Below, in pieces: positions 1,781 through 3,483 of a stretch of DNA of 22,598 bases. Every line of letters begins with the position of its first letter. Within the stretch, counting starts at the first letter, position 1. A program made the position numbers and the translations under genes. This stretch comes from Escherichia coli (GTDB taxonomy: Bacteria; Pseudomonadota; Gammaproteobacteria; Enterobacterales; Enterobacteriaceae), in the NCBI RefSeq assembly GCF_003334815.1, contig NZ_QOWO01000052.1; one strand, written 5' to 3'. Under the pieces are notes generated by a model. It saw only the letters and a list, made by a program, of their open reading frames with translations, did no database searches and was not told the origin of the DNA.

Positions 1781-2620
1781 ATGAACTTACTGAGCGTTAC
1801 AAAGAAAACAAAAATTCGCCACAGAAATGAAATTAACAGCACATTCTCATCGTTGCCTTTGTCTGCCAGAAGAATTTTGTTTATGGCTATGGCGCAGATT
1901 GATTCACGTGAAGAGTTATCTGAGGGGGCAACCTTTCGTATTACGGCTCGGGAATATGCATTTATCGCTGATATTGATGTAACAGGTGCTTACCGGCAGT
2001 TGAAAGAGGGGGCAGAAGAACTTCAGGCCAGTGTTATTCGTATTCCTCGAAATCAACTTCTCACAGCTCAGGGCAATCAAAGCTCTGGACATACGAAGAA
2101 GAGAGGTAAATTACCTTCTGATGCAGTCAGGCTTATGAACCTGACTGCGTTTTGTGATTATGTTGAAAGTGAAGGATATATTGATATTGCTTTTTCACAT
2201 GTCATTGAGCCATATATCACGATGTTAAAGGATTCTTACACTACTCAGGTTTTGATATCGTCTGTAAGACTCGCTGATCAAAATTCAAATATGCTTTATC
2301 AGTTTATCAGGAAACAATACAGCAGTGGTAAAAAGACATTTTTCGACATTGAAGTAGATGTATTAAAGGATGAACTTGAATTATTCAGAATAGATAATGG
2401 CGAAAAAGTTTACCTTTATCAGAATTTTAAGGATTTTAATAAGGTTTTTCTGCAAAAAAACATTGAAAAAATAAATCAATATACAGAGATTAATCATCTC
2501 GAAGTTAAAATTGTTGAGAGAGTCGCAAGAAGAGCATCAAAGCTAAGATTTTCGTATAAAATAGATAAAGAAAGCGAAGGACTTGATACCAGAATACCGT
2601 ATGGTTTCAGAGGTGCTTAA
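1781..2620 (+). CDS. repA: Rep_3-family iteron-binding replication initiator (RepFIB/P1 RepA-like)
   Basis: 279-aa ORF directly downstream of the iterons; Rep_3-like signature LPLSARRILFMAMAQID; SD-like aggt 6 bp upstream of the ATG. Confidence 0.8.
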   Translation: MNLLSVTKKTKIRHRNEINSTFSSLPLSARRILFMAMAQIDSREELSEGATFRITAREYAFIADIDVTGAYRQLKEGAEELQASVIRIPRNQLLTAQGNQSSGHTKKRGKLPSDAVRLMNLTAFCDYVESEGYIDIAFSHVIEPYITMLKDSYTTQVLISSVRLADQNSNMLYQFIRKQYSSGKKTFFDIEVDVLKDELELFRIDNGEKVYLYQNFKDFNKVFLQKNIEKINQYTEINHLEVKIVERVARRASKLRFSYKIDKESEGLDTRIPYGFRGA

Positions 2621-2640
2621 TATATAAAGGTAAATACACT

Positions 2641-3483
2641 ATGGAGCAAATAAAATTACATAAACAAGGTGGTGCGGCAGTAATTATCATTCCTGCTAGT
2701 ATGATAGAAAATACAGGATGGGAAGATGGAACCTTATTGGAGGTACTAGAAATAAATGAGACTCTTCATATAAGAAGAAAGACAGAATCAGGAGCTTTAG
2801 CTACTAAAGCTTGTCCTTCTCTTTTTTCATCTACTATGAGGCATGTTAATTACGATAAAATTATTAGATATAATAGCGGATTAAATCTGTTAGTTAATGA
2901 ACTGTCATTTTCGGCAAGAAGGGTCTTTTTTATTTGTTTATATTATTACTTTGAAAATAAACTTGAATCGGATAAGTCGCTATTGATCCGGGCTGATAAG
3001 TATGCAGAATTTGTTGGTGTTGAGCGTTCTGTCGCATATAAGCAAATGAAGGATGCAGCAGATTTCTTTTCAAGAAATAAAAATTTAATTACACATTGTG
3101 ACTATATTTCGAATGAGGGATTGCTTCGTGTTATGTTTTCGTCTAAGACGATAAATTATATTACAGCGATAGACTCCCGTAAATATCAGGTTACCGAGCT
3201 TCCTCTAAAATCTGCTTTGTCTCTTCAAGGAAGATACTCATGGCCTTTATATCAACTGATAAAATTTAGCCATCTTAAATCTTTCACTATAGGTGTAGAT
3301 GAACTTAAGAAAGAAATAGGTTATATTCAAAATCAAAAGTTTTCTTTCTTTAAAAGAGATGGAATCAATATAGCTATTGATGAAATAACAGAAAGGACAG
3401 ATGTTAAAAACATTAAATGTGTTAATGCTGAAAGGCAGGGGAGAAGAGTCAGCAAAGTCCGTTTTGAGATCGAAATGAGGTAA
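2641..3483 (+). CDS. Second Rep_3-like protein, paralogous to the upstream RepA, with an N-terminal AbrB/MazE-like extension
   Basis: 280 aa, 20 bp after repA; shares LS.SARR(V/I)(F/L)F, (G/S).AY(K/R)Q(M/L)K(D/E).A, CDY(V/I).(S/N)EG and LYQ(F/L)I(R/K) blocks with ORF 1781-2620; first ~55 aa (KLHKQGGAAVIIIPASMIENTGWEDGTLLEVLEI) resemble an AbrB/MazE swapped-hairpin motif. Confidence 0.65.
   Translation: MEQIKLHKQGGAAVIIIPASMIENTGWEDGTLLEVLEINETLHIRRKTESGALATKACPSLFSSTMRHVNYDKIIRYNSGLNLLVNELSFSARRVFFICLYYYFENKLESDKSLLIRADKYAEFVGVERSVAYKQMKDAADFFSRNKNLITHCDYISNEGLLRVMFSSKTINYITAIDSRKYQVTELPLKSALSLQGRYSWPLYQLIKFSHLKSFTIGVDELKKEIGYIQNQKFSFFKRDGINIAIDEITERTDVKNIKCVNAERQGRRVSKVRFEIEMR

What the first reader, a model, noticed from the sequence alone, without database searches (positions are those of the whole stretch)
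1781..3483. Tandem paralogous Rep_3 initiators; the second carries an AbrB/MazE-like N-terminal domain
Iteron replicons normally encode a single Rep. Here two clearly paralogous Rep_3-like genes lie 20 bp apart behind one iteron/DnaA-box/GATC origin, and the second has a ~55-aa N-terminal extension with a swapped-hairpin-like motif (GGAAVIIIPASMIE...LLEVLEI). It could be a fused autoregulator, a copy-number or incompatibility modulator, or a second initiator whose iterons lie elsewhere. I do not recall this domain fusion as a described arrangement.
Basis: partly seen in the sequence, partly recalled or inferred. Interest (0 to 1): 0.6.

Follow-up and report, generated by a model that had tools for sequence, protein, structure and literature searches.

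The report
AbrB-fused second Rep in IncX1 replicon
The replication region of this IncX1 plasmid carries, between the known initiator gene pir and the accessory gene bis, a conserved but dispensable third gene that encodes a pi-like initiator copy fused to a small AbrB/MazE-type DNA-binding and dimerising domain. Databases label it only as 'replication initiation protein', and I found no study of its role.

Summary
ORF1 (1781-2620) and ORF2 (2641-3483) are both full Rep_3 proteins (WH1+WH2), 28% identical and 20 nt apart, behind a DnaA-box/GATC/iteron origin.

The window is an IncX1 replicon:
- ORF1 is Pir/pi: 99% identical to pOLA52 Pir and 40% to R6K pi.
- ORF3 (3487-3933) is Bis.
- ORF2 is neither. 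It is a third gene: a pi paralogue (29% identical to R6K pi; profile hit to PDB 2NRA, E 5e-34) with an extra N-terminal domain (aa 1-47) and a disordered linker.

The AbrB/MazE assignment of that domain holds:
- Weak but consistent hits from three HMM libraries.
- Homology through small proteins that match PF04014 (E down to 6e-13).
- An AF2 model (pLDDT 81) whose Foldseek top hits are MazE, VapB, SpoVT and AbrB.

The pir-ORF2-bis order recurs in five lineages (ORF2 52-100% identical), and a frameshifted copy follows an R6K-like pir. ORF2 is under purifying selection (dN/dS about 0.2). About 255 PLSDB plasmids carry it. About 479 pOLA52-type plasmids carry an 840-bp deletion that keeps ORF2's last 30 nt, so the gene is dispensable.

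Most likely role (inferred): an accessory, constitutively dimeric regulator of IncX replication rather than an independent initiator. The only literature mention found is 'repX2' (2012).

The parts
1267..1315 (+). Two DnaA boxes (TTATCCACA at 1267-1275 and 1307-1315) inside a 37-nt direct repeat
   Evidence: Sequence; repeat family D3/D4; conserved in L001, L006 and L008
1347..1393 (.). AT-rich GATC cluster (four GATC sites) of the gamma-type origin
   Evidence: Sequence; palindromic TTTAAGATCTTAAA repeats; conserved across lineages
1486..1528 (+). Two perfect 22-bp pi iterons (TGAAAGGTGGATGGGTACGCA). This is the remnant of a 5-iteron array after a 77-bp deletion
   Evidence: alignment with L001 and pOLA52 shows the 77-bp gap
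1613..1715 (+). Two degenerate iteron-like copies (1613-1633, 1694-1715); the second lies just upstream of the pir promoter-like site
1717..1746 (+). Sigma-70 promoter-like site (TTTACA-18-TATGAT) upstream of pir; probable operon promoter for pir-ORF2-bis
   Evidence: consensus match only; no terminator-like site between the three genes
1781..2620 (+). pir: IncX1 pi initiator (279 aa)
   Evidence: Rep3_N and Rep3_C; 99% identical to pOLA52 Pir; 40% to R6K pi, E 7e-61
2641..2781 (+). ORF2 residues 1-47: AbrB/MazE/SpoVT-like swapped-hairpin domain
   Evidence: 17 invariant residues across the family
2782..2862 (+). ORF2 residues 48-74: variable, predicted-disordered linker
   Evidence: pLDDT below 50 for residues 49-71; dN/dS 0.5-2.4 against about 0.2 in the flanking domains
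2863..3483 (+). ORF2 residues 75-280: pi-like WH1+WH2 module. Its last codons (ATG AGG TAA) carry the Shine-Dalgarno sequence of bis
   Evidence: Rep3_N 76-208 and Rep3_C 219-277; profile hit to PDB 2NRA_C, E 4.6e-34; Foldseek 2nra_C E 1.8e-15, TMt 0.73; junction sequences
3487..3933 (+). bis ortholog (148 aa; hydrophobic, membrane-like central segment), starting 3 nt after the ORF2 stop
   Evidence: 97% identical to the pOLA52 gene that follows pir; 38% to the 151-aa R6K gene that follows pir, E 2e-40; present in 1984 plasmid records including IncX3
4001..4427 (+). ddp3 (taxD) homolog, split over two frames near 4088-4092
   Evidence: tblastn with the 141-aa L002 protein: residues 1-29 fall in frame +2 and residues 31-141 in frame +3

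Best explanation
SHOWN. This is the basic replicon of an IncX1 plasmid: a gamma-type origin (DnaA boxes, GATC cluster, pi iterons), then pir, ORF2 and bis, apparently as one operon. ORF2 is not bis. It is a third gene encoding a complete pi-like two-winged-helix initiator module (residues 75-280). That module is joined by a disordered linker of about 25 aa to an N-terminal AbrB/MazE/SpoVT-type swapped-hairpin domain (residues 1-47). The gene sits at the same place in at least five IncX1-type lineages. It is under purifying selection in both domains. It is nevertheless dispensable: the pOLA52-type majority of IncX1 plasmids lost it through one 840-bp deletion. INFERRED MECHANISM. AbrB/MazE domains fold only as intertwined homodimers and bind DNA (established knowledge of that superfamily). 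The N-terminal domain should therefore hold two pi-like modules together permanently. In Rep_3 initiators such as pi, RepE and RepA, monomers open the origin while dimers repress and pair ('handcuff') iterons (established knowledge). A permanently dimeric pi paralogue made from the same transcript as pi is thus best explained as an accessory, mainly negative regulator of replication, copy number or incompatibility. It could bridge iteron or operator DNA, or capture pi through WH1-WH1 contacts. Its stop codon and Shine-Dalgarno arrangement also couple bis translation to it, as pir does in R6K.
For: Identity and context: 100% DNA match to an IncX1-typed plasmid. ORF1 is 99% identical to pOLA52 Pir. 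ORF3 is 97% identical to pOLA52 Bis and 38% to R6K Bis. ORF2 is 29% identical to R6K pi. Architecture: Pfam; PDB profile hit to 2NRA, E 4.6e-34; AF2 and Foldseek; AbrB/MazE HMM and transitive evidence. Conserved synteny, with ORF2 stop, 3 nt, then the bis ATG, in the window, L002, L006, L008 and L010, and a frameshifted copy after an R6K-like pir in L013. Selection: dN/dS 0.18-0.28 overall, 0.19-0.44 in the N-terminal domain, 0.11-0.24 in the WH module, and a relaxed linker. Dispensability: pOLA52 lacks window 2614-3453 but keeps the ORF2 3' end 'cgttttgagatcgaaatgaggta'; that junction occurs in 479 PLSDB records against about 255 with ORF2. No second iteron family was found near ORF2. pir (36% GC) and ORF2 (33%) form one AT-rich unit distinct from bis (46.5%).
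Against: No experiment or DNA-binding site supports any specific activity. The AF2 model of the WH module resembles monomeric, iteron-bound pi and RepE54 (TMt 0.73-0.77) more than dimeric RepE (0.49-0.51), so an initiator-like conformation is not excluded. Dimerisation of the N-terminal domain is inferred from family knowledge and was not modelled. ORF2 diverges independently of Pir (Pir 98% identical while ORF2 is 72-79%; dS 0.67 against 0.19), which is odd for a partner that must recognise pi or its iterons. The ORF2 sequence itself scores below the Pfam and NCBIfam trusted cut-offs for AbrB/MazE.
Confidence: 0.45

Rival explanations
1. ORF2 is a genuine second initiator that fires a separate origin, for example an alpha/beta-type secondary origin or iterons elsewhere on the plasmid. 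The AbrB domain would add site recognition or origin pairing.
For: ORF2 has a complete WH1+WH2 module whose model superposes best on iteron-bound monomeric pi and RepE54. It is under strong purifying selection. It lies immediately upstream of, and is translationally coupled to, bis. In R6K, bis is needed only for the beta origin (PMC6416368). ORF2 diverges independently of pir and the pi iterons, as expected if it recognises different DNA.
Against: No second iteron family was found in 600-4500, and pi-iteron cores occur only at 1489-1709 in the whole window. The 840-bp pOLA52 deletion removes only the ORF, yet those plasmids (479 records, mostly conjugative) thrive. R6K and IncX3 run alpha, beta and gamma origins without such a gene.
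Confidence: 0.25
2. ORF2 is an inter-plasmid competition or incompatibility determinant: a decoy initiator that binds the iterons or pi of related incoming or co-resident IncX plasmids and blocks them.
For: ORF2 alleles are much older and more diverse than the flanking pir (dS 0.67 against 0.19; Pir 98% against ORF2 72-79%). Alleles are mosaic: P0004 switches between the window type and the P0014 type. The same gene family accompanies two very different pi types, pOLA52-like and R485/IncX3-like. The gene is dispensable for the carrier's own replication.
Against: This rests purely on evolutionary pattern, and recombination alone can produce it. There is no evidence of positive selection in either folded domain (dN/dS below 0.45).
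Confidence: 0.15
3. ORF2 is a functionless, slowly decaying duplicate of pir.
For: It has been lost in about two thirds of IncX1-type plasmids. It is frameshifted in L013. Truncated fragments are common in databases.
Against: The ORF is intact in about 250 plasmids and five lineages down to 52% identity, with dN/dS about 0.2. The added N-terminal domain has 17 invariant residues.
Confidence: 0.05

Closest known systems
R6K / IncX pi protein (Pir), Rep_3 family; crystal structure 2NRA
   Same: ORF2 residues 65-278 align to pi over both winged-helix domains (profile E 4.6e-34; Foldseek E 1.8e-15). ORF2 is encoded in the same operon directly after the true pir.
   Different: ORF2 is only about 29% identical to pi, whereas ORF1 is the pi ortholog at 40%. 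ORF2 carries an extra N-terminal AbrB/MazE domain plus a linker. It is dispensable, and no cognate iterons were identified.
Bis, the accessory replication protein encoded downstream of pir in IncX plasmids (pir-bis backbone; PMC11880322, PMC6416368)
   Same: ORF2 occupies the slot right after pir, where one would expect bis. Like R6K pir, its stop codon lies 3 nt before the bis start.
   Different: ORF2 is not homologous to Bis. Bis is the next gene (3487-3933; 148 aa; 38% identical to R6K Bis).
AbrB/MazE/SpoVT/VapB swapped-hairpin DNA-binding domains (Pfam PF04014)
   Same: Same length, motif pattern (K-x-G-N/G-S-x-x-V-x-I-P ... G-W/L-x-x-G-D) and beta-beta-alpha-beta-beta topology. Top structural matches are 2mrn, 1mvf and 1ub4 (MazE), 5l6l (VapB), 2w1t (SpoVT) and 1yfb (AbrB). 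As in SpoVT and the antitoxins, the domain is N-terminal to a different C-terminal module.
   Different: The C-terminal partner here is a Rep_3 initiator module. There is no adjacent toxin gene. Among 1.84 billion representative proteins the domain profile found this fusion only in the IncX-linked family.
'repX2' of pMO17_54/pMO440_54 (Burmolle et al. 2012, PMC3402527)
   Same: Described as a second putative replication initiation gene after repX (pir) in a pSE34-like IncX backbone that also has a 77-bp iteron deletion, as in this window. It is very probably the same gene.
   Different: That paper reported a roughly 300-bp 'intergenic region' before repX2, so the N-terminal domain was not annotated, and no function or domain analysis was given. 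I could not retrieve the record to confirm identity.
Dimer/monomer control of Rep_3 initiators (RepE, pPS10 RepA, pi; N-terminally shortened pi forms). From my own knowledge of the field
   Same: The proposed role uses the same logic: dimeric Rep forms repress or handcuff, and monomers initiate.
   Different: Here the dimeric form would be hard-wired in a separate paralogue by a fused dimerisation domain, not produced by chaperone-controlled equilibrium or internal translation starts. This was not tested.

Membership tests
Rep_3 iteron-binding initiators (Pfam Rep3_N PF01051 + Rep3_C PF21205) | Two winged-helix domains, WH1 and WH2, detectable by the family HMMs | tested here: met
   ORF2: Rep3_N E 1.7e-12 (76-208) and Rep3_C E 2.2e-6 (219-277). 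ORF1: E 7.7e-19 and 2.7e-5.
Rep_3 iteron-binding initiators (Pfam Rep3_N PF01051 + Rep3_C PF21205) | Fold equivalent to solved initiators (pi, RepE) | tested here: met
   AF2 pLDDT 70-91 over the WH1-WH2 region. Foldseek: 2nra_C E 1.8e-15, TMt 0.73; RepE54 TMt 0.72-0.77.
Rep_3 iteron-binding initiators (Pfam Rep3_N PF01051 + Rep3_C PF21205) | Binds cognate iterons and is required for origin firing | tested here: inconclusive
   No separate iteron set was found near ORF2. The gene is absent from 479 viable pOLA52-type plasmids, so it is not required. Binding itself cannot be tested in silico.
AbrB/MazE/SpoVT superfamily (PF04014, TIGR01439) | Sequence match to the family profiles | tested here: inconclusive
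   The window protein scores below the curated cut-offs: Pfam E 0.25 in the whole protein and 0.0068 for the domain alone; NCBIfam MazE 6e-4 and AbrB 2.6e-3. However, 2 of 8 family members reach E<=1e-3. Of the alignment built from the small proteins retrieved by the domain profile, 8 of 10 sequences match PF04014, best 5.6e-13. NCBI names a 93-aa fragment as AbrB/MazE/SpoVT family.
AbrB/MazE/SpoVT superfamily (PF04014, TIGR01439) | beta-beta-alpha-beta-beta 'looped-hinge helix' / swapped-hairpin fold | tested here: met
   AF2 domain model, pLDDT 80.9, with strands 5-9, 12-16, 33-38 and 41-46 and a short helix at 19-21 (19-25 in the full-length model). Nearly all of the top 30 Foldseek hits are MazE, VapB, SpoVT or AbrB (2mrn prob 1.00, TMq 0.67; 1mvf rmsd 1.7). 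E-values are weak (0.08-2) because the domain is tiny.
AbrB/MazE/SpoVT superfamily (PF04014, TIGR01439) | Obligate intertwined homodimer that binds DNA | not testable with these tools
   Only single-chain prediction was available. Dimerisation is inferred from family knowledge.
Type II antitoxin (MazE/PemI/VapB type) | Adjacent cognate toxin gene (MazF/PemK/VapC) and a toxin-binding C-terminal tail | tested here: not met
   The C-terminal part of ORF2 is a Rep_3 module. The downstream gene is bis, which has no toxin family hit. The window's only toxin-antitoxin pair is stbDE at 101-623.
Bis (IncX accessory replication protein) | Homology to R6K Bis (151 aa, gene directly after pir) | tested here: not met
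   BLASTP at E<=1e-3 found no ORF2-Bis similarity, whereas ORF3 matches R6K Bis at 38%, E 2e-40.
IncX1 replicon | Pir and iterons of the pOLA52 type; IncX backbone synteny (stbDE, ori, pir, bis, ddp3, parFG, resolvase) | tested here: met
   Pir is 99% identical to pOLA52 Pir. The iteron region aligns with pOLA52. An identical sequence lies in a plasmid typed IncX1 by PLSDB. Neighbouring genes match.

The most novel reading that the evidence does not exclude
ORF2 defines an uncharacterised class of plasmid replication controller: a dedicated initiator paralogue made permanently dimeric by a fused AbrB/MazE domain. It would handcuff iterons or titrate pi, either its own or that of competing IncX plasmids. 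It would thereby set copy number and incompatibility in a clinically important plasmid family. Its single 840-bp loss would then mark the successful pOLA52-type sublineage.
Probability: 0.3. Interest if true: 0.65.

Novelty: new variant of a known kind. Interest (0 to 1): 0.45.

Why it matters
IncX plasmids (X1, X3, X4) are major carriers of resistance genes such as oqxAB, blaNDM and mcr-1. Their replication model comes almost entirely from R6K, which lacks this gene. About one third of IncX1-type replicons in PLSDB encode a conserved extra pi-like protein with a dimerising DNA-binding domain. If it modulates copy number, incompatibility or origin choice, three things follow:
- The textbook 'pir-bis' backbone description would be incomplete.
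- Replicon typing and compatibility predictions within IncX1 would need to take it into account.
- It would offer a natural experiment, a hard-wired dimeric Rep, for the long-debated monomer/dimer and handcuffing models of iteron plasmid control.

If it proves to have no measurable effect, the finding reduces to an annotation correction: the N-terminal domain is often missed, and the gene is not bis.

Tried and rejected
1. 'ORF2 is simply bis, the known gene after pir.' Rejected. Bis is ORF3, and ORF2 has no similarity to Bis.

2. 'The pECTm80 repB (852 nt) is an ORF2-type protein acting as the sole Rep.' Rejected. It fits the R485/pSYM1-type pi (283-284 aa), which is followed directly by bis.

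3. Sequence searches of the N-terminal domain against PDB chains gave nothing relevant.

4. A word-indexed search with the domain profile returned only fragments of the same family.

5. A search for a second iteron family or ORF2-specific repeats in 600-4500, and by comparing origins of lineages with the same Pir but different ORF2, found nothing convincing.

6. Literature searches for a second pir/rep in IncX1 or for a Rep_3-AbrB fusion found only the 2012 'repX2' remark.

7. Records HE578057 (pMO17_54), HE577112 (R485) and JF776874 (pE001) are not in the accessible collections. The identity of 'repX2' with ORF2 is therefore inferred, not verified.

8. The antitoxin reading of the MazE-like domain was rejected because there is no toxin partner (see membership test).
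Full report
**1. Observation**

The ORF listing and the raw sequence give ORF1 at 1781-2620 (279 aa) and ORF2 at 2641-3483 (280 aa), on the same strand and 20 nt apart.
- Pfam assigns Rep3_N and Rep3_C to both. ORF1: E 7.7e-19 and 2.7e-5. ORF2: E 1.7e-12 and 2.2e-6.
- BLASTP between them gives 28% identity over 250 aa, E 4e-16. ORF1 residue 12 aligns to ORF2 residue 75, so ORF2 has an N-terminal extension of about 63 aa.
- Upstream lie two TTATCCACA boxes (1267-1275, 1307-1315), four GATC sites (1347-1393), two perfect 22-bp iterons (1486-1528) and two degenerate copies (1613-1633, 1694-1715). 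The iteron 20-mer occurs twice where shuffles give 0, and its 9-mer core occurs 4 times against 0.22 expected.
- A promoter-like site (1717-1746) precedes pir, and no terminator-like site separates the three genes.

**2. What the locus is**

The 1200-3600 segment is 100% identical to an E. coli plasmid typed IncX1 by PLSDB and matches 933 plasmid records.
- ORF1 is 99% identical to Pir of the IncX1 reference pOLA52 and 40% identical to R6K pi.
- The IncX backbone is described as pir-bis-par-... (PMC11880322), so I first suspected that ORF2 was bis. It is not.
- In R6K, pir (305 aa) is followed 3 nt later by a 151-aa gene. In pOLA52, pir is followed by a 148-aa gene.
- Window ORF3 (3487-3933, 148 aa) is 97% identical to the pOLA52 gene and 38% identical to the R6K gene, E 2e-40. 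ORF3 is therefore Bis.
- ORF2 is a third gene lying between pir and bis.

**3. ORF2 is ancestral to the pOLA52-type replicon, conserved, and dispensable**

pOLA52 aligns with the window on both sides but lacks window 2614-3453, an 840-bp stretch. It still carries ORF2's 3' end ('cgttttgagatcgaaatgaggta', encoding RFEIEMR*) in front of bis. It is therefore a deletion derivative.
- That exact junction occurs in 479 PLSDB records.
- The ORF2 family occurs in about 255 records: 193 of the window type, 58 of the P0014 type and 4 intermediate.
- Five lineages were examined: the window, L002, L006, L008 and L010. ORF2 is 52-100% identical among them. All have pir, ORF2 and bis in that order, with the ORF2 stop, 3 nt, and then the bis ATG. 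The bis Shine-Dalgarno sequence (GAGG) lies inside ORF2's last codons.
- In L002 the partner pi is only 39% identical to the window's Pir and uses different iterons. It is 82% identical to IncX3 Pir and 91% to the R485/pSYM1 type, which lacks ORF2. Bis, in contrast, is 99% identical between L002 and the window.
- A metagenomic contig (L013) has an R6K-like pi (56% identical) followed 7 nt later by a frameshifted ORF2 homolog.

The arrangement therefore extends beyond IncX1.

**4. Selection**

- Nei-Gojobori dN/dS for ORF2 is 0.18-0.28 overall: 0.19-0.44 for codons 1-50, 0.11-0.24 for the WH module, and 0.5-2.4 for the linker (codons 51-75). This is the pattern expected of two folded domains joined by a free linker.
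- ORF2 alleles are older than their neighbours. Between the window and L006, dS is 0.67 for ORF2 against 0.19 for pir, and Pir is 98% identical while ORF2 is 79%.
- One allele (P0004) is a chimera of the two main types.
- pir (36% GC) and ORF2 (33%) form one AT-rich unit next to bis at 46.5%.

**5. The C-terminal module**

- A profile of the family hits the R6K pi-iteron crystal structure (2NRA_C) at E 4.6e-34 over positions 65-278.
- The AF2 model (mean pLDDT 71.5; 70-91 across WH1-WH2) has 2nra_C as its best Foldseek match (E 1.8e-15, TMt 0.73), followed by RepE54. It matches dimeric RepE (2z9o) less well, at TMt 0.49-0.51.

**6. The N-terminal domain**

Residues 1-47 contain 17 invariant positions across the family. 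Four lines of evidence point to the AbrB/MazE/SpoVT superfamily.
- (a) HMM hits:
  - Pfam MazE_antitoxin: E 0.25 within the whole protein and 0.0068 for the domain alone. Six of 8 members reach E<=0.1 and 2 of 8 reach E<=1e-3, best 1.6e-4. The match covers model positions 3-44 of 48.
  - NCBIfam: MazE 6e-4 and AbrB TIGR01439 2.6e-3, both below the curated cut-offs.
  - PHROGs: phrog_4324 (unknown function) 5e-7 and an antitoxin phrog 0.011.
This is a lead only.
- (c) An exhaustive HMMER scan of 1.84 billion representative proteins with the domain profile finds the family itself plus nine small proteins (51-117 aa). When these are aligned with the window domain, 8 of the 10 sequences match PF04014 at E<=1e-3, best 5.6e-13. 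The 117-aa hit is the L013 fusion homolog. No other long protein carrying this fusion turned up.
- (d) Structure:
  - The domain-only AF2 model has pLDDT 80.9, four strands (5-9, 12-16, 33-38, 41-46) and a short helix.
  - Its Foldseek top hits are E. coli MazE (2mrn: prob 1.00, TMq 0.67, rmsd 2.4; 1mvf: TMt 0.79, rmsd 1.7), VapB1 (5l6l), SpoVT (2w1t) and AbrB (1yfb).
  - E-values are weak (0.08-2), as expected for about 45 residues.

In addition, NCBI names an isolated 93-aa fragment 'AbrB/MazE/SpoVT family DNA-binding domain-containing protein'. I consider the fold assignment well supported. Dimerisation is inferred from family knowledge.

**7. Mechanism**

Shown:
- the domain architecture;
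- placement in the pir operon (no terminator-like site between the genes);
- a stop/start overlap arrangement consistent with translational coupling to bis;
- purifying selection;
- dispensability.

Inferred: AbrB-type domains exist only as intertwined dimers, and Rep_3 dimers act as repressors or handcuffing forms while monomers initiate. ORF2 is therefore most plausibly a constitutively dimeric accessory regulator of IncX replication, copy number or incompatibility (confidence about 0.45).

Rivals:
- A true second initiator for another origin (0.25). Its link to bis, which in R6K is required only for the beta origin (PMC6416368), makes this attractive. However, no cognate iterons were found, and pOLA52, R6K and IncX3 manage without the gene.
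- An inter-plasmid competition determinant (0.15), suggested by the allele diversity.
- A decaying duplicate (0.05), contradicted by the selection data.

**8. Comparison with what is known**

- The tandem genes are auto-annotated as two 'replication initiation protein' genes.
- The only literature mention I found is 'repX2' in pMO17_54, a plasmid that also has the 77-bp iteron deletion. That paper describes a roughly 300-bp 'intergenic' gap, which probably corresponds to the unannotated N-terminal domain (PMC3402527).
- No paper in the searchable library describes the AbrB-Rep_3 fusion or any function for the gene.

**Verdict**

This is a real feature: a new variant of a known kind, of moderate interest (0.45).

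Noticed in passing
window 1486-1528 (compare L001 3200-3638): The window has a 77-bp deletion in the iteron array: five tandem 22-bp iterons in L001 and pOLA52 against two here. The same 77-bp deletion is reported for pMO17_54 (PMC3402527). At least one other PLSDB record (NZ_AP022545.1, a single collinear match of 2401 nt) appears to share it.
   Followed up: partly
window 4001-4427: The ddp3 (taxD) homolog is split between two reading frames near 4088-4092 relative to the intact 141-aa gene in L002. It is probably a pseudogene, or uses a different start.
   Followed up: partly
L003 (pOLA52) 35728-35766: The IncX1 reference plasmid pOLA52 carries a scar of ORF2 (its last 30 nt or so) between pir and bis. 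The 'canonical' pir-bis arrangement of IncX1 is therefore a deletion derivative. The same junction is found in 479 PLSDB records.
   Followed up: yes
window 737-778 and 926-967: A 42-nt direct repeat (83% identical; TAAAACGCxCTGTAxCGCxTTCTGAGCG...) lies between stbD and the origin, in a segment 96% identical between the window and L002. Its function is unknown.
   Followed up: no
L002 3729-5000 compared with window 1290-2640: There is replicon-module mosaicism. L002 shares a 96-99% identical backbone on both sides (stbDE side and bis). However, it has a different iteron set (AAGTTGAGAGGATTTTTAAC-like, about 6 copies) and a Pir only 39% identical to the window's, which is 82% identical to IncX3 Pir. 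pSYM1 is typed 'IncX1,IncX3'.
   Followed up: partly
L013 1083-2464 (Logan SRR18067249): An R6K-like pi (56% identical to R6K pi) is followed 7 nt later by a distant ORF2 homolog (AbrB-like domain plus the start of WH1). The homolog continues in another frame after a frameshift. This is either a pseudogene or an assembly error, and it extends the tandem arrangement towards IncX2-like plasmids.
   Followed up: partly
protein P0004 (alignment A1, columns 34-110): This ORF2 allele is identical to the window type at both ends but matches the P0014 type in the middle, which indicates recombination between ORF2 alleles.
   Followed up: no
window 101-623 (- strand): A stbD/stbE (RelE/ParE-type) toxin-antitoxin pair lies next to the origin. 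It is the window's only toxin-antitoxin pair and is unrelated to the MazE-like domain of ORF2.
   Followed up: partly
window about 9100-22200: The cargo region holds a fimbrial chaperone/usher cluster (818-aa usher at 13911-16367) and a 1370-aa S6-family peptidase (SPATE-type autotransporter, 17258-21370). Only one PLSDB plasmid (NZ_CP092255.1) covers more than 80% of the window.
   Followed up: no
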